The notes beneath the pieces are model-generated. The model did not search any database and was not told the DNA's origin. It saw only the letters and a program-made list of their open reading frames with translations. From the IMG/VR virus record IMGVR_UViG_3300049144_000052, positions 1 through 64,000 of that record: a DNA stretch of 64,000 nucleotides. One strand, given 5' to 3'. Position numbers and translations under genes: made by a program. This DNA is from a virus. Taxonomy: Duplodnaviria > Caudoviricetes. Shown here in pieces: positions 3,807 through 49,040 of this stretch (position 1 is its first letter; each line of letters opens with the position of its first letter).

Positions 3807-5905
3807 GCATCGAGACGACCCCCAGTAGCACCCCCGACCCAGAGTGGGAGCGCATCGTCGGCGGCTACCTGAACGCCCCCGGCGAGGCGCCCGTCGAGAA
3901 GCAGACGACGTCCGTCGACCTGATGGGCGACACGCCCCTCACCCCAGCCTGGACGAAGACCCGCACCGGCTGGAAGAGCCGCGCCGAGGTCGGCCGCGTC
4001 AACACCGTCCGCAGCTTCCGGAAGTGGCTGCGCCGGCAGGCCACCGAGCACGGGCACGCCTCACAGATCGGCCGCGGGATCCGCCGCACGGTCCTGTGGG
4101 TGCAGGGCACTGAGGGCGCGCAGATCCTCGCCGCCCGGCACGAGGTGCAGCAGGCGCAGCGCGACTACAAGGCCGCGAAGTGGGCGCACGACCGGCGGCT
4201 CATGCCCGGCAAGGAAAAGGACAAGCGGCGCCGGGAGATGGAGGGAGCCTTCGCCGACTCCGTCGCGGCGATGAGCAAGTATCGGTCGGCGCAGCGGGAC
4301 GCCCGCGTGCGGCGGGCCGTGCGCGGCGTTGCGGCCCTCGCCCCGATCGCCGGTGTCGAGGGTGCCGGGCTGCACCTGCTCGGCGCGCCCGGCGGACTCG
4401 CAGCCACCGCCGCCACCCTGGCCACGTTCGCGCTGATCGGCCGGCGCACCACCGCTGGCGAGCTGTACACCGACCGCGACGCGAAGATCGGCGACGGGGA
4501 CCGCATGACCGACGAGATGGTCAACCGGGTCTATCGCGACGCTCGCGTCATCGCCGCCGACGACGAACTGCGCCTCATCACCCCCTGCACGCTCACCGCC
4601 GACGGCAAGGCCTGGCAGGTCGTGTTCCAGCTGCCGTCCGGCACCCCCGCCAAGAAGGCGCTCGGCGCGCGCGAAGGCATTGCAAACGGCTTCGGCGTGT
4701 CCGTGCAGCAGGTCCACCAGACCCGTGGCGACCGCGAGGACACCATTCACCTACGGGTGTCGCTGAAGCTGCCGTTCTCGTCCAAGCCGACCCGGGGCCC
4801 GCTGCTCGACGCAGAGCGGGTCAACCTGTGGCGGCCCATCCGGATGGGTGTCAACCTGCGCGGCGAGGAAGTTGTCACCTCGTGGGTCGAGCGGTCCGGA
4901 CTGTTCGGCGGCGAGCCAGGCTCCGGCAAGTCCGCCGCGGCCAACGACCTGCTGCTCGCTGCTGCCCTCGACCCGACGGTGCGCATGTACCTCGCCGACG
5001 GCAAGGCCGGCGCCGACATCACCCCGTTCGAGCCGATCGCCACGATGTTCGACACCGATGGTGACCCCGACAAGCTCCTCGACATCCTGCAGTACATGTG
5101 GGACGTCGAGATCAAGGAGCGGCGCGCCCTGGCGAAAGAGCACGGTTCCCGCAAGCTGACCGAGGCGATGGCCGCCGTCGACCCGCGGGTCTGCCTGGCC
5201 GTGCTCCTCGTCGACGAGTGGTCGTCCTACGGTGCCGCCGCCGACCAGAAGACCCGGCAGGAGATGGAACGGCTGCTGCGGCTGATCGTCCAGCAGGGCC
5301 GGGCGCTCGGCATCATCAGCCTCGCCGCCACACAGAAGCCCGACAGCGACTCCGTGCCCACCGGCATCCGCGACATCCTGTCCATCCGCTGGGCGATGCG
5401 CTGCCTCACCCCGCAGGCCTCCGACACGATCCTCGGCCAGGGCTACGCCTCCGCCGGGCACAACGCGCAGGACATCCTCAAGTCGCAGCGCGGCGTGGGC
5501 ATCTACATGGACGGTGAAGGAGCCGAACCGGAACTGGTCCGCGGCGACTACTACGACGATGACGAGGTCGCCGCCATCCTGGGCCGCGCCTACGCGCTGC
5601 GGCAGGAAGCTGGGACGCTCCCGGTAGGGGCCGAGCCGGACATCCTCGATCACCTGATCAAGGCCGCTTCGGGGACCGGCCGCGGCAACGTGACCCGCGC
5701 GGAGGTGTTCGCCTACCTCGCCACGGTCGACGAGGGGTTCGTCCGGGGGGACGACGAGAGCGATGAGCGTCACCGGTCCCGGGTCGGCAGTCTCCTCAAG
5801 GACCGCCTCGCTGAGCTCGGCGTCGAGGTGCCCGCCGTGCAGTTCCCGCTCGACGGTAAGCGCGTCTGGGGATGGACCTTGGAATCCCTCCAGGGCGCCC
5901 GATAG
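3803..5905 (+). CDS. traB: FtsK/SpoIIIE-family DNA translocase, TraB-like
   Basis: Walker A GGEPGSGKS, Walker B VLLVDE, ATQKP motif, hydrophobic segment before the ATPase, winged-helix-like C-terminus. Confidence 0.85.
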   Translation: MSIETTPSSTPDPEWERIVGGYLNAPGEAPVEKQTTSVDLMGDTPLTPAWTKTRTGWKSRAEVGRVNTVRSFRKWLRRQATEHGHASQIGRGIRRTVLWVQGTEGAQILAARHEVQQAQRDYKAAKWAHDRRLMPGKEKDKRRREMEGAFADSVAAMSKYRSAQRDARVRRAVRGVAALAPIAGVEGAGLHLLGAPGGLAATAATLATFALIGRRTTAGELYTDRDAKIGDGDRMTDEMVNRVYRDARVIAADDELRLITPCTLTADGKAWQVVFQLPSGTPAKKALGAREGIANGFGVSVQQVHQTRGDREDTIHLRVSLKLPFSSKPTRGPLLDAERVNLWRPIRMGVNLRGEEVVTSWVERSGLFGGEPGSGKSAAANDLLLAAALDPTVRMYLADGKAGADITPFEPIATMFDTDGDPDKLLDILQYMWDVEIKERRALAKEHGSRKLTEAMAAVDPRVCLAVLLVDEWSSYGAAADQKTRQEMERLLRLIVQQGRALGIISLAATQKPDSDSVPTGIRDILSIRWAMRCLTPQASDTILGQGYASAGHNAQDILKSQRGVGIYMDGEGAEPELVRGDYYDDDEVAAILGRAYALRQEAGTLPVGAEPDILDHLIKAASGTGRGNVTRAEVFAYLATVDEGFVRGDDESDERHRSRVGSLLKDRLAELGVEVPAVQFPLDGKRVWGWTLESLQGAR

Positions 5906-38462: not shown

Positions 38463-39107
38463 GTGCCGGAGCCCGATGACTGGGGCCAGGGCATTGATCT
38501 CTGGCAGCTCACCGACGCGCCCAGCATTCCCGCCGCGATCCAGGCCCTGGCGGTGGGGTTGATCCCGCGTAGCAACATGCGGTTCGCGTCAGCTGCGGCG
38601 CGTAACGCGGCGATCGACAGCCCTGAGGAGGGCATGCAGGCGTGGCTGATCGCCGAGGGCCGTCTGGAGATCTACCGCAACGGGTCCTGGCTGCCCTGGC
38701 CGCCGGTCCCTGTGCAGACCTTTCAGGTGTCGGACGCCCCGTACAACGCCACCCAGACCACCACGGACTATTCGTCGTCGGCTTGGCCGCGCCCGCAGTT
38801 CGTGGCGCCGCCGTCGGGTCGCGCCTACGTGACGATCGGCGCGGCGGTCTCCAACTACAACACAGACACGTCGACGATCTGGGCTGCGTGGCGGGCCACC
38901 GGCTCCATGGGGTACAGCTACATCGACCTCACCAAGACCGGTATCTCCGCTCAGGGAACACGCGTGGTCGCGTCGCGGCGGCTGATGCTCACCGGCATGA
39001 CGCCGGGGGAAACCATCACGATCATCCCGCAGTGGAACATCAGCTCCGGATCAGCGTCCAAGGCAGAGACCAGCGGCGGTGTCCTCCTCGTCGAACCCGC
39101 ACCATGA
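38463..39107 (+). CDS. Minor tail / fibre protein
   Basis: DAPSIPAAIQALA...RFASAAARNAAI..PEEGM..W pattern. Confidence 0.7.
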   Translation: MPEPDDWGQGIDLWQLTDAPSIPAAIQALAVGLIPRSNMRFASAAARNAAIDSPEEGMQAWLIAEGRLEIYRNGSWLPWPPVPVQTFQVSDAPYNATQTTTDYSSSAWPRPQFVAPPSGRAYVTIGAAVSNYNTDTSTIWAAWRATGSMGYSYIDLTKTGISAQGTRVVASRRLMLTGMTPGETITIIPQWNISSGSASKAETSGGVLLVEPAP

Positions 39108-39168
39108 CCTGCCGCACCCTGCTCGCCCCGCGCCGTTCGCCGGGGCCTTCTTCATTCCTGGAGGCCTC

Positions 39169-40221
39169 ATGGCCAAGACCGGCCCGCAGCGGTACCCGGG
39201 CGCCAGCACGGCCTACTGGTACGGGGCGAAGTACCCAGGCTCCGCGATGGAGTCGAACGTCATCGTCTGGCACACCACGGAAGGGACCTCCCTGCCGTCC
39301 TACGACGGCGGATCGCAGGCCCCCACCTTCACAGCCAAGCCCAACTGGGCTGCTCAGAAGCTGGACTGGTACCAGCACTTCGACTTCGACGTCTCGGCCC
39401 GCGCCCTCGTCAACCTCGCCGGCGGCGTGGAGACGAACACGCTGAATGCGGTGCAGGTGGAGATCGTCGGCACCTGCGACCCTGCCGCCCACAGCAAGTG
39501 GGTGAAGGCTGGCTACCAGCACCTGTACGCCCCTGAGTTGCCGAACTGGGCGATCCGCGACCTGGGTGCTTTTGCGCGGTGGGCGCACGACAACCACGGC
39601 GTGCCCCTCGCCGCCGATGTGACGTTCAAGGCGTATCCGGGCAGCTACGGCACCAGCAACGGCGTCCGCATGTCCGCCGCAAGGTGGAACAGCTTCACCG
39701 GGCACTGCGGCCACCAGCACGTCCCCGAGAACCTCCACGGCGACCCGGGCGCACTGCCGATCGCCGCGATCCTCACCGCCGCCAAGGGCGGCGCCACCAC
39801 CCCGCCCGAGGAGAACGACGTGGCACTCACCGACGCCGAAATCAACAAGATCGCTGACGCCGTTTTCAAGAAGATCGCGGCAGGCGACGGCGTCCTCGAA
39901 GGCGCCGACCTCAAGCGCGTCTGGGCTGTCGACGCCATCCCCGCCGCACGGCCGCCCTACCACAACACCGACTACTACCAGGCAGACGGCAAAACCCTCA
40001 ACAACACGACGTGGACCGCCGGATACACGCAGCAGACCCAAACCGAGGGGATCCGCGAGGCAGTCACCCTGATCAAGCAGCTCGCGGGTAACAGCGGCAC
40101 GATGCAGCTGTCGGACTCGCAGATCGCCACGCTCGGCGCCGTGATCGCCGCGAACCCAGCGCTGGCAGAGCGGATTGCGGACCTGGTCGCGACGAAGCTC
40201 GCGGAACGGCTCGCCGAATGA
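39169..40221 (+). CDS. Endolysin, amidase-2-like
   Basis: IVWHTTEG, NAVQVEIVG, GHQHVPENLHGDPG zinc-amidase motifs. Confidence 0.82.
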   Translation: MAKTGPQRYPGASTAYWYGAKYPGSAMESNVIVWHTTEGTSLPSYDGGSQAPTFTAKPNWAAQKLDWYQHFDFDVSARALVNLAGGVETNTLNAVQVEIVGTCDPAAHSKWVKAGYQHLYAPELPNWAIRDLGAFARWAHDNHGVPLAADVTFKAYPGSYGTSNGVRMSAARWNSFTGHCGHQHVPENLHGDPGALPIAAILTAAKGGATTPPEENDVALTDAEINKIADAVFKKIAAGDGVLEGADLKRVWAVDAIPAARPPYHNTDYYQADGKTLNNTTWTAGYTQQTQTEGIREAVTLIKQLAGNSGTMQLSDSQIATLGAVIAANPALAERIADLVATKLAERLAE

Positions 40222-40585: not shown

Positions 40586-40969
40586 ATGCGCATATTCGGC
40601 AGAGAACCCGTCTACATCCTGGCAGCGGTCGCGATCGCCCTGAAGCTGGCCGCCGCCTACGGGCTGGACGTCAGCGGCGACCAACAGGCCCTCATCAACA
40701 CAGTGCTGTCCTGCATCGTCGCCGTCGCATCCGCGGTCGTCCTGCGCAACGGCGCGCTCGGCGCTGCCGTCCTGCAACTCGCGTCCGCCGGCCTCGCCCT
40801 GTTCGTCGGCTTCGGCCTCGACCTGTCCGCAGAGCAGCAGGCCGGATGGATGTCCCTCGTCGCTGCGATCCTCGCGCTCTTCGAGCATCGCGAGGTCACC
40901 GCCCCCGTACCGGCCGTGCCCCTCGAACAGTCCAGCCCCGTCAAGGCATCCCCCGTCCAGGGGGTGTGA
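40586..40969 (+). CDS. Holin-like membrane protein
   Basis: GREPVYIL start, about 4 hydrophobic helices, lysis cassette position. Confidence 0.7.
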   Translation: MRIFGREPVYILAAVAIALKLAAAYGLDVSGDQQALINTVLSCIVAVASAVVLRNGALGAAVLQLASAGLALFVGFGLDLSAEQQAGWMSLVAAILALFEHREVTAPVPAVPLEQSSPVKASPVQGV

Positions 40970-41419
40970 GTGCATCGCCGGGCGGCCCGCTGGTTCAGCG
41001 GGCACCTCGGTAGCCGCGGCCCTTTCCTCGTCTTCATGGGCATCGGGAAAGTCTGCTTCGGCTTCAGCTTCATCTTCGACCCGCCATGGACGACCGAGGG
41101 GCTGCAAATGCTGGCCCGCTTCGCCCCCATCCACTGCTGGGCCTGGGTGTGGATCATCTGCGGCGCCGCCACATTCAGCAGCGCCTGGCTGGAGTTCGCC
41201 AGGGACCGCTGGGGCTTCGTCGCCGCCAGCATCCCGCCCGCGATCTGGGCGTTCACCTACGGATGGGCCGGAATCCTCGGCGACTACTCCCGCGGCCTGT
41301 GGCTGTTCGTCTGGTACATCACATCGCACTGTGGGGTGATCTGGTGCGCGTCTCGTGTTCCACCCAGCGCCGGATCGCCTGATCTGCCCGGCCGGGTGGT
41401 TGAGGGGAGACCCGGGTGA
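40970..41419 (+). CDS. Membrane protein in the lysis cassette
   Basis: About 4 hydrophobic helices. Confidence 0.68.
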   Translation: MHRRAARWFSGHLGSRGPFLVFMGIGKVCFGFSFIFDPPWTTEGLQMLARFAPIHCWAWVWIICGAATFSSAWLEFARDRWGFVAASIPPAIWAFTYGWAGILGDYSRGLWLFVWYITSHCGVIWCASRVPPSAGSPDLPGRVVEGRPG

Positions 41420-41745
41420 ACGGTGTCTTGGGCCTGGTTGGTGCTGGGGTGACGCTGATCGGTGTGGTCGTGACGGGCTGGTTCACGTACCGCGGCGGGC
41501 GGACCGCAGCGGCGATCCAGGCGGCGCCAGCCGCGAAGGCGCAGGACTTCGCCGTGTTGCAGGCGACGGTGGAGCGCGTCGACGGGGAGAACAAGGAACT
41601 GCGAGGCCGGCAGTCGCGGCTGGAGTCGCTGCTGCGCGCGTTTGCGTGGACGACGGACCGGTGGGCGCGCCAGATGCATCAGGCGGGGATCGAGCCGGAG
41701 CCGCCGCATCCTCTGGTGGACGAGTACAACCGAACTGGAGTGTGA
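41416..41745 (+). CDS. Membrane-anchored coiled-coil protein in the lysis cassette
   Basis: N-terminal TM followed by a coiled coil. Confidence 0.7.
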   Translation: MNGVLGLVGAGVTLIGVVVTGWFTYRGGRTAAAIQAAPAAKAQDFAVLQATVERVDGENKELRGRQSRLESLLRAFAWTTDRWARQMHQAGIEPEPPHPLVDEYNRTGV

Positions 41746-41749
41746 GCCG

Positions 41750-42049
41750 ATGCTTGATGCCGTCCTGCGTGTCCCGCGCCGAGACGACACCGCCGCCGAC
41801 ACTGGCAGCCTCGCCCGCATGGGCCGCATCGAAGAACAGCCGGTTCCGACAGCGACCCCCGAGCTGGCGGCGGAATCGCCCGCTGAGACGGCGCCCCCGG
41901 CTGAGCTGGAAAAGGCACTCGCAGGCGCCGGCGTCACCGCAATCTCTGCGGACCACACCGCGATGCAGGCCCTCGGACAGCTTGATGCCGCAACGCTCGA
42001 AGCTGTCACGCGCTGGGTCCAGTCGAAGCCCGGAAAGGCCAGCAAGTAG
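41750..42049 (+). CDS. Hypothetical protein
   Basis: ATG 41750 in ORF 41642..42049. Confidence 0.6.
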   Translation: MLDAVLRVPRRDDTAADTGSLARMGRIEEQPVPTATPELAAESPAETAPPAELEKALAGAGVTAISADHTAMQALGQLDAATLEAVTRWVQSKPGKASK

Positions 42050-42059
42050 AGGAGGCCGC

Positions 42060-42164
42060 GTGCCCGAAGAGACCCCCGAGACGGAGACACCGTTCTGGCT
42101 GTCGCCGTGGCCGTTCATCGAACCCGACCTGCCACCCGCCGAACCCGGTGACGAACCCGCATGA
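42060..42164 (+). CDS. 34-aa Pro/Glu-rich peptide
   Basis: GAGGAGG RBS, GTG 42060. Confidence 0.45.
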   Translation: MPEETPETETPFWLSPWPFIEPDLPPAEPGDEPA

Positions 42165-42166
42165 GT

Positions 42167-42192
42167 AACGCCCCTCCTTCGGGAGGGGCGTT
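42167..42192. terminator. Terminator ending the late operon
   Basis: AACGCCCCTCC-TTCG-GGAGGGGCGTT, 11-bp stem. Confidence 0.85.
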
Positions 42193-42276
42193 CCGTCGTG
42201 TCTGGTGGGGGAGTTGCGGTATCTGCTGGACGTGTTACCGCTTGATGCGGGTATGGTGGTCACACAACTTCATGCA

Positions 42277-42346
42277 CCTCCCGGTGCGCAGGCCGCGGCT
42301 ACTTCTTTGGAAAAGTCCGCCGCACGCCGACTTTGATCTCGGGAGG
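42277..42346 (+). ncRNA. Short Y RNA-like element (Ro-binding stem only)
   Basis: CCTCCCG/CGGGAGG closing stem; GTGCGCAGG and CTTTGATCT internal bulged helix; near-duplicate of the ends of the next RNA; upstream of Ro60. Confidence 0.72.
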
Positions 42347-42356
42347 CACAGCATCG

Positions 42357-42503
42357 GGGGTGCCCGGTGCGCAGGCAGCGGATACTTCTCCTGCTAAGAG
42401 AGAGACGCGGGTTCGAATCCCGTCCACCGGTCCAGCGGGCCGGAGGTAGCTCAGCGGCCCAGAGCGCTTTGTCTCCGCAGCCGACCTTGATCTCGGGCAC
42501 CCC
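42357..42503 (+). ncRNA. yrlA: YrlA-like Y RNA with a circularly permuted tRNA-like domain
   Basis: GGGGTGCCCG/CGGGCACCCC stem; T arm GCGGG-TTCGAAT-CCCGT precedes acceptor-like stem and D arm GCTC-AGCGGCCCA-GAGC; adjacent to the Ro60 gene. Confidence 0.82.
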
Positions 42504-42515
42504 ACTGCTGATCCT

Positions 42516-42538
42516 CCCCTCCACGTGAGGGGCTTTTT
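42516..42538 (+). terminator. Terminator-like hairpin overlapping the Ro60 RBS
   Basis: CCCCTC-CACGT-GAGGGG-CTTTTT immediately before ATG 42540. Confidence 0.65.
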
Positions 42539-42539
42539 C

Positions 42540-44177
42540 ATGACCAGATTCAACCAGCGCGGCACCCGTCCCGCCGTCCACTCGCCCGTGACCACCACCG
42601 GGGAGCGGGCTCGCACCACAGAGGGCGCCACCGGCTTCCTGCGAGACGCAAAGTCCGAGCTCTTCCTGCTCGCCGTCTCCAACTTCGTTGGCCAGGACGC
42701 CTTCTACGAGAAGGGCGGCGACCGCGACGACCGCTACACGCAGCTCGTCCGCAAGCTCGCCATCGAGGACCCTGCGTGGACTGCGGGCCTGCTGGGCTGG
42801 CTCCGCGGCGAGGGCAACATGCGGACTGCGGCCCTCGTCGGTGCTGCGGAGTTCACCGCCGAACGACTCCTGCACGAGGCCCCCGGGTACTCCCGGCAAG
42901 TCATCGACTCCGTGCTTCAGCGCGCCGACGAGCCGGGGGAGATGCTCGGTTACTGGACCAGCAAGTACGGCCGCCGCCTGCCGAAGCCCGTCAAGCGCGG
43001 CATCGCCGACGCCGTACAGCGCCTGTACAACGGCAAATCCCTACTGAAGTACGACACCACCTCAAAGGGCTACCGCTTCGGTGACGTCCTCAACCTCGTG
43101 CACGCAGCCCCGGACCCGGCCAAGCCATGGCAGGGCGACCTGTTCCAGTACGCCCTCGACCGCCGACACAACCCGACCGAGGCCGTCGAGCCGCCGACGA
43201 ACCGAACACTTACCGCACGCCGGGAACTGATGGAGCTCCCGGTCGACGAACGGCGGGCCCTGCTGACAGCCGAGGACTGCTCCGAGCGGCTCGCGGCGGC
43301 TGGCATGACGTGGGAGGCGCTGGCCGGCTGGCTTCAAGGGCCGATGGACAAGGCGGCCTGGGAGGCGGCCATCCCGTCCATGGGCGTAATGGCCCTTGCG
43401 CGGAACCTGCGCAACTTCGACGAGGCTGGCGTCTCCGACGCGGTCGCCGCCCAGATCTGCACCCGCTTCACCGATGCGGAACAGGTCGCCAAGTCCCGCA
43501 TGTTCCCCTTCCGCTGGTGGGCCGCCTACAAGCACGCCCCCTCCCTGCGGTGGGCGCACGCCCTGGAGCAGGCACTGAACCACTCGCTGGCCAACGTGCC
43601 GCAGCTGGCCGGCCGGACGCTGATCCTGGTGGACCGGTCGCCGTCGATGTTCCCCGGCTACGGTTTCTCCACCCCGAACAGCTCGGACATCACCCTTGCC
43701 GAGCAGGCCGCCGTGTTCGGGTCCGCTCTCGCGCTACGGGCGGAGGCTCCCACGCTCGCCGAGTTCGGATGGACCAGCAACCGCATCGACGTGCCCAAGG
43801 GCGGCAGCGTCCTCAAGCTCATCGAGAACTACGGGCAGATCGACGGCACTGACATCCCGTCTGCGGTAAAGCAGCACTTCGATCTCCTCCGCCACGACCG
43901 GATTGTCATCGTCACCGACGAACAGACCCGTCCTGGCTGGCTGCCTTCAAACGCCTACGGACACGGCGGCATGCGGGAGACGGCGATCGATGACCTCGTT
44001 CCAAAGACGGTGCCCGTCTATATGTGGAACATGGCTGGCTACAAGCCCGGCGCCATGCCGTCCGGGACTGCTGGTCGGCACACATTCGGCGGACTGACGG
44101 ACCACGCCTTCCGCATGGTGCCGCTCCTCGAGGCCGGCCGCGACGCGACCTGGCCGTGGATGCAGCAGCCCGCCTGA
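42540..44177 (+). CDS. rsr: Ro60/TROVE-domain RNA-binding protein with vWA domain
   Basis: SELFLLAV..F...FYE, GNMRT, ALARNLRNF, MFPFRW, vWA MIDAS LVDRSPSM and IVTDEQ. Confidence 0.92.
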   Translation: MTRFNQRGTRPAVHSPVTTTGERARTTEGATGFLRDAKSELFLLAVSNFVGQDAFYEKGGDRDDRYTQLVRKLAIEDPAWTAGLLGWLRGEGNMRTAALVGAAEFTAERLLHEAPGYSRQVIDSVLQRADEPGEMLGYWTSKYGRRLPKPVKRGIADAVQRLYNGKSLLKYDTTSKGYRFGDVLNLVHAAPDPAKPWQGDLFQYALDRRHNPTEAVEPPTNRTLTARRELMELPVDERRALLTAEDCSERLAAAGMTWEALAGWLQGPMDKAAWEAAIPSMGVMALARNLRNFDEAGVSDAVAAQICTRFTDAEQVAKSRMFPFRWWAAYKHAPSLRWAHALEQALNHSLANVPQLAGRTLILVDRSPSMFPGYGFSTPNSSDITLAEQAAVFGSALALRAEAPTLAEFGWTSNRIDVPKGGSVLKLIENYGQIDGTDIPSAVKQHFDLLRHDRIVIVTDEQTRPGWLPSNAYGHGGMRETAIDDLVPKTVPVYMWNMAGYKPGAMPSGTAGRHTFGGLTDHAFRMVPLLEAGRDATWPWMQQPA

Positions 44178-44188
44178 CCAAGCGGGAA

Positions 44189-44213
44189 GCCCCGCTCTCC
44201 TTCGGGAGGGGGC
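44189..44213. terminator. Terminator between rsr and the convergent lipoprotein genes
   Basis: GCCCC..CTCC-TTCG-GGAG-GGGGC. Confidence 0.65.
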
Positions 44214-44224
44214 GCGTCGTCGTG

Positions 44225-44839
44225 TCAGAACTCCAGCTGCTTCTTCACCTCGGCCACGTTCGGGCCGCTATCCGTTGCGGGCATCTTCCAGCGGAACGCC
44301 TTCTCCTCGCCGTCGATGTAGATCAGCGTTCCGCCCTTCGCCTGCGCGGGCGTCAGATCGAAGACCTGGGCACGCCACTGGTAGGTGCCGGGCTGCACGG
44401 GGTCGGCGTTGTTGTACTTGTCCATGACCACGCCGGACGAGTTGCCGCTGTCGAAGGCAACCATCTCCCCATCAGGCGCCATCCACTTCCACCCGCCGCC
44501 ACCGATCGGGGCCGGCTCGTCGGCGGCGACGGCGGTTGTGGCTTTGTCTTTCATTGTGACGACGGCGAACACGCCGTTCTCTGCAGTCTCCCCGCTGCCT
44601 TCCTTCGTGAACACGATCGTGTCCGGTGTGACCTCCAGGACGCCGGTGCCGCCGTCGCCTGTGGTCTTCGCTGAGTCGCCAAGGGCCAGGGTCTGTGACT
44701 CGTCGACTGTCCCGGACTTTTCGACGCGGGTCGGAGCAGCCTCGGGCGCCGAGTCGGCCTTGTCGCTGCTGCCACTACCGCATGCGGTGAGGGCGGCCAG
44801 GAGCAGGGCGGTGGTGACGGCGGTAGCGTGAACGCGCAT
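44225..44839 (-). CDS. Lipoprotein with an Ig-like beta-sandwich domain
   Basis: Signal peptide with lipobox ALTAC; Ser/Ala linker; beta-rich body. Confidence 0.8.
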   Translation of the reverse strand: MRVHATAVTTALLLAALTACGSGSSDKADSAPEAAPTRVEKSGTVDESQTLALGDSAKTTGDGGTGVLEVTPDTIVFTKEGSGETAENGVFAVVTMKDKATTAVAADEPAPIGGGGWKWMAPDGEMVAFDSGNSSGVVMDKYNNADPVQPGTYQWRAQVFDLTPAQAKGGTLIYIDGEEKAFRWKMPATDSGPNVAEVKKQLEF

Positions 44840-44881: not shown

Positions 44882-45526
44882 CTACGGGCAGGACTCGCCG
44901 AACTTGACCGCAGTGAACGTGACCGGCTGCCCATTCAGTGCTGCTCCCTGAGCGGGGGACTGGCTGCACACCTGCCAGTTACTCTCCACAAGCACGAAGC
45001 GGTCCTCCGCCGACGCGTCGTTCACGGTGATCGACGTGCTCGAATCCAGCGCACCACGGGCTGCCTTCACCGACTTGCCCTTGAAGTCGGGCATCTTGCC
45101 TCCTTCTGCCGCCAGTGGCTTCTCGTCCTTCGCTGGGCACGTCTCGTCCAGCTTCACCGCCCCGAAGTCCAGCTTGCTGCCCGTCGAAATCGAGGAGCCG
45201 GCCTTGATGTTCTGGCTGCACACCTGCCAGTTGCGGTCGAACGCCTGCATGCGGTCACGGCCGAGCGCGTCGTGCGAGGTGAGCCCGTAGAAGCCGAGTT
45301 CCTGCGCCTTGTCCTGCGCGGACTGGAGACCCATGCCGACGAAGTCCGGCATGTTCGCCTTCTCTGCGGCAGGCTTGGCGTCGGTCGGCGCACTGCTGGT
45401 CGGGGCCGCGGGTGTTGACGGGCTTGCGACGCCAGATGGCTTGGCGGTGTCCGTTGGCTGGCAGGCGACGATGCTGACTGTGGCGGCGCAGCAGAGCAGG
45501 GCTGCAGAGATGATGCGGGTACGCAC
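44882..45526 (-). CDS. Lipoprotein with two PASTA-like domains
   Basis: SIVAC lipobox; MPDFVGMGLQSAQD and MPDFKGKSVKAA repeats, each with WQVCSQ. Confidence 0.8.
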   Translation of the reverse strand: MRTRIISAALLCCAATVSIVACQPTDTAKPSGVASPSTPAAPTSSAPTDAKPAAEKANMPDFVGMGLQSAQDKAQELGFYGLTSHDALGRDRMQAFDRNWQVCSQNIKAGSSISTGSKLDFGAVKLDETCPAKDEKPLAAEGGKMPDFKGKSVKAARGALDSSTSITVNDASAEDRFVLVESNWQVCSQSPAQGAALNGQPVTFTAVKFGESCP

Positions 45527-45563
45527 TGATTCCCCCGAGTGATGTTGGTACAGGCGGAACACG

Positions 45564-45580
45564 GTAGACGAAATGTGGAC
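45564..45580 (-). promoter_or_regulatory. Candidate operator matching sites in the immunity region
   Basis: Reverse complement GTCCACATTTCGTCTAC versus CGAGACACTTCGTCTAC at 58197. Confidence 0.4.
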
Positions 45581-45666
45581 GCTGCGTGAACGCGCGTCAC
45601 CAGGTCGTGACACGACGACGCCCCTGCTCCTCGCCGTTGCGGCGGGGAGCAGGGGCGTCGTCGTGT

Positions 45667-47721: not shown

Positions 47722-48009
47722 ATGCCTTCAGACTCCCGTGCCCGCCTCATCGCATACCTCTGCCAAGCCGGGTTGAGCACTGCTCGCGCCAACGCTCTCC
47801 TCGACGACCACATCGCCGAAGTCATCGGGAAGAAGCGTGAGCCGGTGGCTGCCTGCATTCCGGCGCCTGCTCCTGGGGAGGTCTACGGCATCGAGGACCC
47901 AGGCGCCCTACCGGTGGCTGTTGGGTGCGAGCACTGGCGGCGGGAGCACCGGGCGGACCTCTGCCCCATGGGTGGGTGCCAGCGGTGCCGGTACCTGGAG
48001 CGGCTGTGA
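47722..48009 (+). CDS. Hypothetical protein with C-terminal Cys cluster, probably leaderless
   Basis: TACAAT 47711-47716 five nt before ATG; GTGA overlap with the recombinase. Confidence 0.55.
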   Translation: MPSDSRARLIAYLCQAGLSTARANALLDDHIAEVIGKKREPVAACIPAPAPGEVYGIEDPGALPVAVGCEHWRREHRADLCPMGGCQRCRYLERL

Positions 48010-49040
48010 CGCTGAATGAGTCGGTGGCTCTTGCGTCGCATTCCCAGGAGGCCGCCCCCGCCATCTACGACGCGGCAACGCTCGCCGTCCTGGCCGCCAT
48101 GGAAGAGGCCGCCGAGAAGCACCTCAACGCCATCCGCCCCCACAACACCAAGCGCAGCTACGCCAACGACTGGGCATTGTGGGAGGAGTTCCACGACTGG
48201 CTGGGAGAGCGTACCGGGCACCGCATCGCCTCGACCAACGTCACCAAGGGCACGCTCGTCGGGTTCGTCGTCTGGCTCGACACCATCAAACTCGCCGCGC
48301 CCAACAGCATCGACCGGCGCATCACCGGCGTCACCGTCACTGCTCGCAACGAGCACGGTGTCGAAGTCCCCAAGGCTGCCACTGTTGCAGCCCGGCAGGC
48401 GCTCAAGCCGCTGAAGAACGACCCCGAACGCATGGCGCGCGGACGCGGCAAGGCCGCCGCCGTCACACCCGAGCAGCTCCGCCAGATGAACGACGCCGTA
48501 GCCGACGGGCTCACCGGACTCCGCGACCGCGCCCTCTGGCTCATGGCCTTCGCCATCGCCGGACGCTCCGCCGAAGTCGCCGCACTCCGCGCCGAGGCGA
48601 TCGTCCACGTCAGCCAAGGCCTCGAAGTCCACGTCCCCGCCGTCAAAGGCCGACCGCCCCGGGACGTCGTCGTCCACTACGGCAAGAACCCCGACACCTG
48701 CCCCGTCCGCGCCTGGCTCACCTGGCGCGCCGCCGCAGGCATCACCGGCGGGCCTGCCTTCCTGCCTATCACCGTCCACGGCCGCCTCGGCGACCGCGCC
48801 CTCTCCCCGGAAGCCGTCCGCGAGATCATCGTCCGCAACGCCGAACGCGCCGGGCTGTCGGTGCGGCTCACCGGACACAGCATGCGAGCCGGGTTCATCA
48901 CCACCTCTCGACGCGCAGGCAAGCGAGAGGAGAAGATCCGCGAACAGTCCGGCCACGCCGAGAACAGCCCCGCCTTCTGGGGATACATTCGCGAGGCTGA
49001 CAAGTGGACTGACGCGGCCAGCGAGGACATCGGACTATGA
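48006..49040 (+). CDS. Cre-like tyrosine recombinase
   Basis: N-terminal core-binding domain; RDRAL....F..AGRSAEV, HSMRAG, SGH, WGYIR catalytic set. Confidence 0.85.
   Translation: MTLNESVALASHSQEAAPAIYDAATLAVLAAMEEAAEKHLNAIRPHNTKRSYANDWALWEEFHDWLGERTGHRIASTNVTKGTLVGFVVWLDTIKLAAPNSIDRRITGVTVTARNEHGVEVPKAATVAARQALKPLKNDPERMARGRGKAAAVTPEQLRQMNDAVADGLTGLRDRALWLMAFAIAGRSAEVAALRAEAIVHVSQGLEVHVPAVKGRPPRDVVVHYGKNPDTCPVRAWLTWRAAAGITGGPAFLPITVHGRLGDRALSPEAVREIIVRNAERAGLSVRLTGHSMRAGFITTSRRAGKREEKIREQSGHAENSPAFWGYIREADKWTDAASEDIGL

What the first reader, a model, noticed from the sequence alone, without database searches (positions are those of the whole stretch)
42167..44213. Phage-borne Ro60 (Rsr) plus two tandem Y RNAs as a terminator-bounded cassette with no RtcB nearby
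Seen: right after the lysis-operon terminator come two RNA elements sharing GGTGCGCAGGC(C/A)GCGG(C/A)TACTTC and GCCGAC(T/C)TTGATCTCGGG ends, then a full TROVE+vWA gene and another terminator. Established: bacterial Ro60 binds Y RNAs, tethers PNPase, and is often encoded with the RtcB tRNA-repair ligase; it has been reported only rarely in phages. No rtcB, rtcA or rtcR is recognisable in this window. Inference: a stand-alone RNA surveillance or decoy module acquired by the phage, possibly protecting translation from tRNA-targeting defences.
Basis: partly seen in the sequence, partly recalled or inferred. Interest (0 to 1): 0.85.

Follow-up and report, generated by a model that had tools for sequence, protein, structure and literature searches.

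The report
Phage Ro60 with two Y RNAs
A temperate Streptomyces phage carries a self-contained 2-kb add-on that encodes the ring-shaped RNA-binding protein Ro60 and two partner Y RNAs; the module is real and well supported, but it is a new example of a kind already described in phages and bacteria.

Summary
Between two copies of one terminator hairpin (42167-42192 and 44189-44213) lie four things: a promoter-like region, a 70-nt short Y RNA (42277-46), a 145-nt YrlA-type Y RNA with a tRNA-like module (42358-42502), and a full Ro60/Rsr gene (42540-44177).

The long RNA's fold is backed by strong covariation in 100 relatives. The protein folds as Ro60, and its best match is the Thermus phage phiLo Ro60. 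A 95-97% identical sibling phage lacks exactly this 2.0 kb, so it is a discrete optional cassette. It sits in the lysis-to-integrase 'moron' slot.

It is not novel in kind:
- Chen et al. 2014 listed YrlA next to Ro60 in 22 phages.
- phiLo Ro60 with two Y RNAs was characterised in 2025.
- Isolated Streptomyces and Gordonia phages carry the same pairing, and some of their Y RNAs are annotated as tRNAs.
- This scan's notes mention such modules in over 1,000 genomes.

'No RtcB nearby' is true but uninformative, because Streptomyces rsr lies megabases from rtcB. The anti-defence decoy idea is untested. The most likely role is a Ro60-Y RNA particle that recruits a host tRNA-elbow-binding or exonuclease partner.

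Useful extras:
- Rfam's YrlA model misses this whole lineage.
- The hairpin before the start codon sequesters the ribosome-binding site.
- The host loci have a related three-RNA layout.

The parts
42167..42192 (+). Terminator hairpin closing the lysis operon; left copy of the duplicated hairpin that flanks the cassette
   Evidence: Fold of -27.3 kcal/mol, z = -6.3. The sibling phage L125 has a single copy of this hairpin where the window has two.
42227..42257 (+). Promoter-like region: TGGACG, a 19-nt spacer, then the -10-like TATGGT (42252-42257)
   Evidence: A -10-like TAnnnT box is invariant at T, A and the final T in 22 related upstream regions and is seen in most of the 117 loci. The generic sigma-70 scan found nothing, so this is inferred, not shown.
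42263..42274 (+). Conserved leader CACAACTTCATG before the short RNA
   Evidence: Nearly invariant in phage-type loci. The same words form the linker between the first long RNA and the short RNA in host-type Streptomyces loci.
42277..42346 (+). Short Y RNA (YrlB-like): the Ro-binding bulged helix plus a small hairpin, with no tRNA module
   Evidence: 74 relatives: 97.4% of cells paired, 7 of 16 pairs with compensatory change, slid controls at most 48%. Mean identity to 16 clade members is 92%, against 80% for the coding sequence. Model R1 scores it 59.8 bits.
42358..42502 (+). Long Y RNA of YrlA type: the Ro-binding helix carrying a circularly closed tRNA-like module
   Evidence: 100 relatives: 32 pairs, 97.8% of cells paired, 23 pairs with compensatory change, 0 of 500 shuffles as high, slid controls at most 50%. 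Rfam YrlA matches only the core at 19.3 bits, against a gathering score of 69.
42386..42465 (+). tRNA-like module: V hairpin with loop CUGCUAA (42386-42402), T arm (42407-42423), closed acceptor-like hairpin (42424-42446), D arm (42449-42465)
   Evidence: Rfam alignments to the tRNA and YrlA models. ARAGORN miscalls 42364-42434 as tRNA-Ser(gct). Helices 4-6 show compensatory changes.
42516..42538 (+). Hairpin CCCCUC/GAGGGG followed by U5. It looks like a terminator and pairs the ribosome-binding site (GAGGGG, 42527-42532) 7 nt before the start codon
   Evidence: The only terminator-like site found by the scan. It is conserved in the phage clade and, with changed letters on both strands (UCCCCC/GGGGGA), in host-type loci.
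42540..44177 (+). rsr: Ro60 orthologue, 545 aa, TROVE ring plus vWA domain with an intact metal-binding site
   Evidence: D365, S367, S369, T437 and D460 are invariant in 32 relatives and align to the phiLo metal-site residues.
44189..44213 (.). Right copy of the duplicated terminator hairpin; a two-way terminator between rsr and the convergent gene 44225-44839
   Evidence: Fold of -22.3 kcal/mol. Its core and 3' tail repeat the left hairpin, and the sibling phage joins the two flanks through one copy.

Best explanation
This is an optional, self-contained Ro60-Y RNA gene cassette (a 'moron') in the central lysis-to-integrase region of a temperate Streptomyces phage. A promoter of its own most likely drives one transcript that is cut into a short Y RNA and a YrlA-type Y RNA. 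A hairpin with a U-tract then lets only part of the transcription continue into rsr, and it holds the ribosome-binding site paired. This would give more RNA than protein. Both RNAs bind the Ro60 ring through the shared bulged helix (GGUGCGCAGG opposite CUUGAUCUC). By analogy with Deinococcus, Salmonella and Thermus phage phiLo, the tRNA-shaped module of the long RNA then tethers Ro60 to a host partner. That partner is most plausibly the exonuclease PNPase or another protein that recognises the tRNA elbow. The particle would then handle structured or damaged RNA in the infected or lysogenic cell. Shown here: the identity and fold of the protein, the conserved structure of both RNAs, their linkage, and the cassette's gain or loss as a unit. 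Inferred: co-transcription, attenuation, RNA-protein binding, the partner, and the benefit to the phage.
For: Protein: TROVE hit, full-length match to phiLo Ro60, Ro60 fold and an intact metal site. RNAs: both strands occur exactly twice. Covariation is strong for the long RNA and modest for the short one. Both RNAs are conserved at or above the level of the coding sequence (92% and 84% against 80%). Linkage: the same RNA-then-rsr order holds in about 100 loci from Streptomyces genomes and viral contigs. It also holds in six isolated actinophages found with my model R1. Cassette status: a sibling phage that is 95-97% identical lacks exactly about 42203-44196, and only 1 of 33 contigs with a related holin has Ro60. 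Position: endolysin and holin lie upstream, and an HTH protein and a tyrosine integrase lie downstream. Hairpin before the start codon: it is conserved and changes on both strands between the phage and host types. Precedent: in M. smegmatis YrlA and YrlB are processed from one precursor upstream of Rsr (PMC4201824), and phiLo Ro60, its Y RNAs and host PNPase form a ternary complex in vitro (PMC12135203).
Against: No expression data could be obtained; no RNA run holds the sequence. The generic sigma-70 scan finds no promoter. Rfam's YrlA model does not reach its threshold (19.3 against 69 bits). The published Ro-binding motif GNCGAAN0-1G is present only as a variant, CGCA instead of CGAA. Folding of the single sequences is not better than shuffles (z = -0.8 and -1.6), so the support rests on the comparative data. 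PNPase binding is known for only a few systems, and the effector of YrlA-type RNAs is still called unknown in 10.1101/312249.
Confidence: 0.85

Rival explanations
1. The role is lysogenic conversion. The prophage expresses the Ro60 particle to help its host survive DNA damage, starvation or other stress, as Rsr does in Deinococcus. The molecular mechanism is the same as in the best explanation.
For: The cassette sits in the central region next to the integrase and HTH regulators. It has its own promoter-like region and terminators. It is optional among sibling phages. Four related loci carry a match to the actinobacterial DNA-damage promoter tTGTCRgtg-8 nt-TAnnnT (consensus from PMC5656591). 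Many members of the clade are prophages in Streptomyces genomes.
Against: The window's own promoter does not match the DNA-damage motif. Strictly lytic, tRNA-rich phages such as BRock and Alone3 carry the same pairing, so a function in lytic growth must also exist. Streptomyces hosts often have their own rsr locus.
Confidence: 0.3
2. The tRNA-shaped Y RNA, with or without Ro60, acts as a decoy or sensor that shields translation from host defences that cut tRNAs, or otherwise counters an RNA-based defence.
For: The long RNA mimics a tRNA closely enough for ARAGORN to call it tRNA-Ser. It carries a 7-nt loop with the anticodon-loop signature CU-NNN-AA, which is found in 42 of 102 relatives against about 7 expected. 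In lytic actinophages the gene lies inside tRNA arrays, or next to an RNA ligase or a nucleotidyl transferase. The phiLo authors propose hijack of PNPase to escape CRISPR (PMC12135203).
Against: The anticodon-like loop is missing in more than half of the relatives and its 'anticodon' varies. No repair enzyme (RtcB, RtcA) is in the genome. The same RNAs and protein are chromosomal in Streptomyces, flanked by housekeeping-type genes. There is no functional data.
Confidence: 0.1
3. The cassette is a passenger: a fragment of the host rsr locus picked up by the phage, with no function for it.
For: Host-type Streptomyces loci share the short RNA, the long RNA, the linker words and the hairpin before the start codon. 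The cassette is dispensable, since siblings lack it.
Against: The window's Ro60 sits in a well-supported clade of 26 sequences, 25 of them in phage context, separate from the host clade. Within that clade the RNAs and the protein are conserved, with compensatory changes and an intact metal site. The phage version has its own promoter region and a reduced two-RNA layout.
Confidence: 0.05
4. The second element is a real tRNA-Ser(GCU) gene, as ARAGORN reports and as the equivalents in Alone3 and VanLee are annotated.
For: ARAGORN call at 42364-42434. Rfam tRNA alignment end to end at 19.9 bits.
Against: The score is below the Rfam tRNA threshold of 29 bits. There is no D arm in that reading and no long variable arm as in bacterial tRNA-Ser. 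The 'acceptor' pairing is not kept in relatives, whose corresponding strand varies freely while the 5' strand is invariant. The Y RNA fold, by contrast, is kept in 97.8% of cells. Rfam at gathering score does not call the Alone3 or VanLee elements tRNA either.
Confidence: 0.02

Closest known systems
Actinobacterial rsr locus with YrlA and YrlB (Mycobacterium smegmatis; Chen et al. 2014, PMC4201824), and the chromosomal Streptomyces loci found here
   Same: Y RNAs lie directly upstream of rsr on the same strand. One RNA carries T, acceptor-like, D and V stem-loops, and one is a short hairpin RNA. The Ro-binding strand is shared. There is no rtcB linkage. Streptomyces host loci share the linker words and the hairpin that pairs the ribosome-binding site.
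   Different: The host loci have three RNAs (long, short, long) between PhoX and TerD genes, with Ro60 62-64% identical. The phage has two RNAs (short, long), a different promoter region, and forms its own clade.
Thermus phage phiLo Ro60 with Yrl1 and Yrl2 (PMC12135203; PDB 9KOP, 9L5Y)
   Same: A phage-encoded Ro60 with two Y RNA-like genes just upstream. It is the best sequence and fold match among solved structures. The vWA metal site is conserved.
   Different: Identity is only 23-27%. phiLo is a 178-kb phage of a thermophile, whereas this is a 77-kb temperate actinophage. phiLo's Yrl RNAs were described through a CGAA motif; here the motif is CGCA, and one RNA carries a full tRNA-like module.
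Ro-like RNA binding protein genes of isolated actinophages (Streptomyces phages BRock, Alone3 and JustBecause; Gordonia phages VanLee, Rabbitrun and BearBQ)
   Same: Homologous Ro60 at 43-50% identity, with one or two homologous Y RNAs directly upstream, found with model R1 at 55-109 bits. BearBQ also has it next to its integrase.
   Different: Most are large lytic phages in which the gene lies inside tRNA arrays or next to an RNA ligase. Their records do not annotate the Y RNAs, or call them tRNA-Ser or tRNA-Arg. No isolated phage is closer than 50% to the window's protein.
Salmonella rsr-yrlBA-rtcBA RNA repair operon (PMC7790460; PMC4201824)
   Same: Ro60 with a YrlA-type and a second Y RNA.
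   Different: No RtcB, RtcA or sigma-54 activator context here. In Streptomyces rsr and rtcB are unlinked.

Membership tests
Ro60 / Rsr (TROVE + vWA ring protein) | TROVE domain above Pfam's curated cut-off | tested here: met
   PF05731 at 45.1 bits against a cut-off of 23. The hit covers only residues 276-334, but PHROG 850 covers residues 25-547.
Ro60 / Rsr (TROVE + vWA ring protein) | Full-length helical-repeat ring closed by a vWA domain | tested here: met
   AlphaFold2 model with pLDDT 84 and pTM 0.79. The 12 best Foldseek matches (ranks 1-13) are all Ro60 structures (phiLo, D. radiodurans, Xenopus, human), with TM 0.61-0.76.
Ro60 / Rsr (TROVE + vWA ring protein) | Metal-ion site of the vWA domain (DxSxS ... 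T ... D) | tested here: met
   D365-R-S367-P-S369, T437 and D460 are invariant in 32 relatives and align to the phiLo motif residues.
Ro60 / Rsr (TROVE + vWA ring protein) | Binds Y RNA in vivo | not testable with these tools
   Needs immunoprecipitation or a gel-shift assay.
YrlA-type Y RNA (Rfam RF02553; Chen et al. 2014) | Reaches Rfam's gathering score | tested here: not met
   19.3 bits against 69, and only model positions 28-81 align. No YrlA hit at gathering score in 12 related host and phage loci either.
YrlA-type Y RNA (Rfam RF02553; Chen et al. 2014) | Encoded within 2 kb of Ro60 on the same strand | tested here: met
   It ends 38 nt before the rsr start codon. The same holds in about 100 loci.
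YrlA-type Y RNA (Rfam RF02553; Chen et al. 2014) | Conserved T and D stem-loops with a closed acceptor-like stem-loop between them, and a V stem-loop before T | tested here: met
   Helices 4, 5 and 6 are paired in 94-99% of cells, with compensatory changes in 3, 7 and 3 pairs. The V hairpin lies at 42386-42402.
YrlA-type Y RNA (Rfam RF02553; Chen et al. 2014) | 5' motif GNCGAAN0-1G, thought to contact Ro60 | tested here: inconclusive
   The window has GUGCGCAGG in both RNAs. Among relatives 75 of 102 long RNAs have CGCA and 19 have CGAA. It resembles GGUCCGA of animal Y RNAs (quoted in PMC4201824) but is not an exact match.
Short second Y RNA (YrlB / Yrn2 type) | Long hairpin with the Ro-binding strand, no D arm, encoded beside YrlA | tested here: met
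   70-nt hairpin sharing both Ro-binding strands, conserved in 74 loci. No sequence family exists to test against, and the 'pyrimidine-rich loop' is only partly matched.
Genuine tRNA-Ser(GCU) | tRNA covariance score, D arm, long variable arm, conserved acceptor pairing | tested here: not met
   19.9 bits against 29. The D region is unaligned. The acceptor pairing is not conserved in relatives.
rsr-rtcBA RNA repair operon | RtcB ligase and RtcA cyclase adjacent to rsr | tested here: not met
   No match in the whole 76.6-kb record. In five Streptomyces genomes rtcB is megabases away from rsr.
Phage moron (independent accessory transcription unit) | Present or absent between otherwise collinear phage genomes, and flanked by a terminator | tested here: met
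   Sibling L125 lacks about 42203-44196, with 95-97% identity on both sides. Only 1 of 33 holin-related contigs has Ro60.
Phage moron (independent accessory transcription unit) | Own promoter | tested here: inconclusive
   A conserved -10-like TAnnnT box is present, but there is no sigma-70 consensus match and no transcript data.

The most novel reading that the evidence does not exclude
The 2-kb unit is a mobile Ro60 particle that temperate Streptomyces phages gain and lose at a terminator hairpin. It would be expressed from the prophage, in some relatives from a DNA-damage promoter, and its tRNA mimic with an anticodon-like loop would act in phage-host or phage-phage conflict. It might serve as a decoy or sensor for tRNA-cutting defences, or as a way to redirect host PNPase. 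On this reading it is not general RNA housekeeping.
Probability: 0.12. Interest if true: 0.7.

Novelty: new member of a known kind. Interest (0 to 1): 0.3.

Why it matters
Nobody yet knows what phage-encoded Ro60 particles do. This locus adds a clean natural experiment: two sibling temperate phages that differ by exactly the cassette, in a genetically tractable host genus that has a related chromosomal locus for comparison.

In practical terms, it shows three things:
- A whole actinobacterial and actinophage lineage of YrlA-type RNAs escapes Rfam's curated threshold.
- Some of these RNAs are annotated as tRNA genes in GenBank phage records.
- About 170 aligned sequences and a working covariance model are now available to fix that.

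It does not change what is known about the kind of system.

Tried and rejected
- Rfam at gathering score found nothing in the window and no YrlA in 12 related loci. In E-value mode it gave only sub-threshold tRNA and YrlA core matches.
- Single-sequence folding did not set the RNAs apart from shuffles (z = -0.8 and -1.6). The case rests on comparative data.
- The generic sigma-70 scan found no promoter.
- I looked for the actinobacterial DNA-damage promoter motif. The window does not match it; only L009, L012, L020 and L048 do.
- The tRNA-Ser reading was rejected.
- The 'internal CCA' after the acceptor-like strand, noted by another first-stage reader, is lineage-specific: 7 of 99 RNAs.
- A first attempt to find the anticodon-like hairpin by minimum-energy folding failed, because the folds paired loop bases. 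A direct stem-and-loop search replaced it.
- My first start-codon coordinate (42541) was off by one.
- The supplementary tables of Chen et al. 2014 are not held. I therefore could not check whether Streptomyces or these phages were on their list.
- RtcR was not searched.
Full report
WHAT IS THERE

The window is the first 64 kb of a 76.6-kb IMG/VR virus record that CheckV rates complete. Its G+C content is about 68%. The region has a clear anatomy.

- The last small genes of the lysis operon (endolysin 39079-40221, holin 40586-40969) end at 42164.
- A very stable hairpin follows at 42167-42192 (-27.3 kcal/mol, z = -6.3).
- Next comes a promoter-like stretch with a -10-like TATGGT at 42252-42257.
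- A conserved leader, CACAACTTCATG, lies at 42263-42274.
- RNA 1 spans 42277-42346 and RNA 2 spans 42358-42502.
- A short hairpin with a U-tract lies at 42516-42538.
- An ORF runs from ATG 42540 to 44177.
- A second hairpin at 44189-44213 faces the stop codon of a convergent gene (44225-44839).
- Further downstream are a PASTA-domain gene and an HTH gene on the minus strand, a tyrosine integrase (47925-49040) and a Cro/CI-like HTH gene.

This is the central lysogeny region of a temperate actinophage.

Chance expects 0.00 and 0.03 matches. The outer stems of the two RNAs differ in a fully compensated way (CCUCCCG/CGGGAGG against GGGUGCCCG/CGGGCACCC), which already points to RNA structure.

THE PROTEIN IS RO60

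- Pfam TROVE is above its cut-off, and PHROG 850 covers residues 25-547.
- phmmer against the PDB finds only the Thermus phage phiLo Ro60, at 1.2e-28 and over both halves of the protein.
- An AlphaFold2 model built on 32 relatives (pLDDT 84, pTM 0.79) matches all solved Ro60 structures and nothing else at comparable scores.
- The vWA metal-site residues D365, S367, S369, T437 and D460 are invariant in the relatives.

THE RNAS ARE Y RNAS

Rfam finds nothing at gathering score. With loose thresholds its YrlA model aligns only the T arm, the acceptor-like hairpin and the D arm, at 19.3 bits against a threshold of 69. Its tRNA model reads the 5' half at 19.9 bits. ARAGORN calls the same stretch tRNA-Ser(gct).

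I collected 37 viral and 80 genomic loci that encode relatives of the protein. Almost all carry the same strands upstream of the gene.

- Long RNA. An alignment of 100 distinct long RNAs supports a 32-pair structure. 97.8% of cells are paired and 23 pairs show compensatory change. None of 500 shuffles reached the observed values, and slid controls stayed at or below 50%.
- Architecture. It has an outer stem, the Ro-binding bulged helix, an inner stem, a V hairpin, a T arm, a closed acceptor-like hairpin and a D arm. This is the architecture described for YrlA (PMC4201824, 10.1101/312249).
- Short RNA. It is nearly invariant in sequence across 74 loci, with modest covariation in its inner stem.
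- Conservation. Against 16 members of the window's clade, the short RNA is 92% identical and the long RNA 84%. The coding sequence is 80% identical and the region upstream of the leader 67%.
- Ro-binding motif. The published motif has CGAA. Here it is CGCA, as in 75 of 102 related long RNAs, and 19 have CGAA.

I therefore file RNA 2 as a YrlA-type Y RNA by architecture and linkage. I note that it fails the Rfam score test, as does its whole lineage.

IT IS A DISCRETE, OPTIONAL CASSETTE

I anchored a search on the holin gene. Of 33 related viral contigs with at least 4 kb of downstream sequence, only one has Ro60.

One sibling, L125, is 95-97% identical on both sides. Window 40592-42202 aligns to L125 6007-7618, and window 44197-44733 aligns to L125 7589-8125. 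The 30-nt overlap is the terminator hairpin. A three-way alignment shows that the sibling has one hairpin where the window has two copies flanking the 2.0-kb unit.

So the unit was inserted at this two-way terminator, or was deleted through it. The direction cannot be told from these data.

WHERE IT COMES FROM

A census of neighbouring genes separates two contexts.

- 31 loci are chromosomal in Streptomyces, with PhoX upstream and TerD downstream. Their Ro60 is 62-64% identical to the window's, and the RNA order is long, short, long.
- 32 loci have phage neighbours, namely the same lysis genes and an integrase. Their RNA order is short, long.

In a Ro60 tree the host-context sequences form one supported clade. 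The window lies in a separate, fully supported clade of 26 sequences, 25 of them in phage context.

The leader before the phage's short RNA uses the same words as the linker between the first long RNA and the short RNA in host loci. The phage layout therefore looks like the host layout without the first long RNA and with a new promoter region. This shows relatedness. I did not test which is the donor.

REGULATION (INFERRED)

A -10-like TAnnnT box sits a fixed distance upstream of the first RNA in nearly all loci. The hairpin before the start codon pairs the ribosome-binding site GAGGGG with CCCCUC and is followed by U5. It is conserved in the phage clade, and in host loci it has changed on both strands (UCCCCC/GGGGGA).

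In M. smegmatis both Y RNAs are cut from one precursor upstream of Rsr (PMC4201824). Taken together, this suggests one transcript, partial termination and restrained translation of rsr. No RNA data were available to check this.

WHAT IS KNOWN ALREADY

- Chen et al. 2014 reported YrlA-like RNAs next to Ro60 in 254 bacteria and 22 phages, and at least two Y RNAs in each species studied (PMC4201824).
- The phiLo study described a phage Ro60 with two upstream Y RNA-like genes and a ternary complex with host PNPase (PMC12135203).
- In GenBank, 76 of 50,697 phage records have a homologue of the window's protein. The closest isolated phage, BRock, is 50% identical.
- My covariance model finds homologous Y RNAs just upstream of the gene in VanLee, Rabbitrun, BRock, Alone3, JustBecause and BearBQ. 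One of these RNAs is annotated tRNA-Arg (VanLee) and another tRNA-Ser(gct) (Alone3).
- This scan's own notes mention phage Ro60 and Y RNA modules in over 1,000 genomes.

THE RTCB POINT

No RtcB or RtcA is in the record. But in five Streptomyces genomes rtcB lies megabases from rsr, and no RtcB-like neighbour cluster appeared among the 117 loci. The absence is the norm for this lineage.

FUNCTION

The best-supported mechanism is a Ro60-Y RNA particle whose tRNA-like module recruits a host partner, by analogy with the systems in print.

- Lysogenic role. A role in the lysogen is suggested by the position, the optional nature of the cassette, and DNA-damage-type promoters in four relatives (consensus in PMC5656591).
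- Lytic role. This must exist in the tRNA-rich lytic phages that carry the same pairing.
- Decoy idea. It remains possible but unsupported. The anticodon-like loop (CU-NNN-AA) is enriched (42 of 102 against about 7 expected) but is neither universal nor constant.

VERDICT

This is a real, well-built and comparatively well-documented example of a known kind. Interest is modest.

Noticed in passing
L121:2153-2305 (Streptomyces phage Alone3) and L001:3994-4138 (Gordonia phage VanLee): Elements annotated in GenBank as tRNA-Ser(gct) and tRNA-Arg(tct) directly upstream of the Ro-like gene match my Y RNA model end to end (54.7 and 109 bits). Rfam does not call them tRNA at gathering score. They are most likely YrlA-type RNAs miscalled as tRNAs.
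   Followed up: partly
window 42275-42283 and 42339-42351: The outer stem of the short Y RNA (CACCUCCCG / CGGGAGGCAC) is identical in 72-74 of 74 relatives, while the same stem of the long RNA varies freely with compensation. Its 5' strand reads like the anti-Shine-Dalgarno end of 16S rRNA (as I recall it) and its 3' strand like a ribosome-binding site. This suggests a sequence-specific role beyond pairing.
   Followed up: no
L009, L012, L020, L048, about 30-55 nt upstream of the short RNA: The promoter region reads TTGTCA-NNN-8 nt-TACAGT. This matches the RecA-independent DNA-damage promoter consensus of actinobacteria (tTGTCRgtg-8 nt-TAnnnT, PMC5656591). The window and most relatives have a different upstream region.
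   Followed up: partly
window 42216-42240: An inverted repeat, GCGGTA ... TACCGC, spans the -35 position of the promoter-like region. Relatives of the same promoter class have GGTAAC-N10-GTTACC there (L005, L018). It may be an operator for a repressor.
   Followed up: no
L122:873-1625 (JustBecause) and L123:276-1121 (Rabbitrun): In some lytic actinophages the Ro-like gene sits directly after an annotated RNA ligase, or near a nucleotidyl transferase and tRNA genes. In BRock and Alone3 it lies inside a tRNA array. The window has no such link to RNA repair or tRNA genes.
   Followed up: no
L103, L105, L108, L111, L112 and others, about 4550-4990: Chromosomal Streptomyces rsr loci carry three Y RNAs in the order long, short, long, between a PhoX phosphatase gene and a TerD gene. 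The first long RNA has a different outer stem (GUCCAG/CUGGAC).
   Followed up: partly
window 42424-42446: The acceptor-like hairpin reads as a 7-nt strand followed by U-CCA, as another first-stage note pointed out. This N-CCA is present in only 7 of 99 related long RNAs, so it is a lineage quirk rather than a family feature.
   Followed up: yes
window 44882-45613 (minus strand): A 243-aa protein with two PASTA repeats (Pfam 7.5e-13) is encoded between the cassette and the integrase, next to a 204-aa protein with no family. This is an unusual domain for a phage lysogeny region.
   Followed up: no
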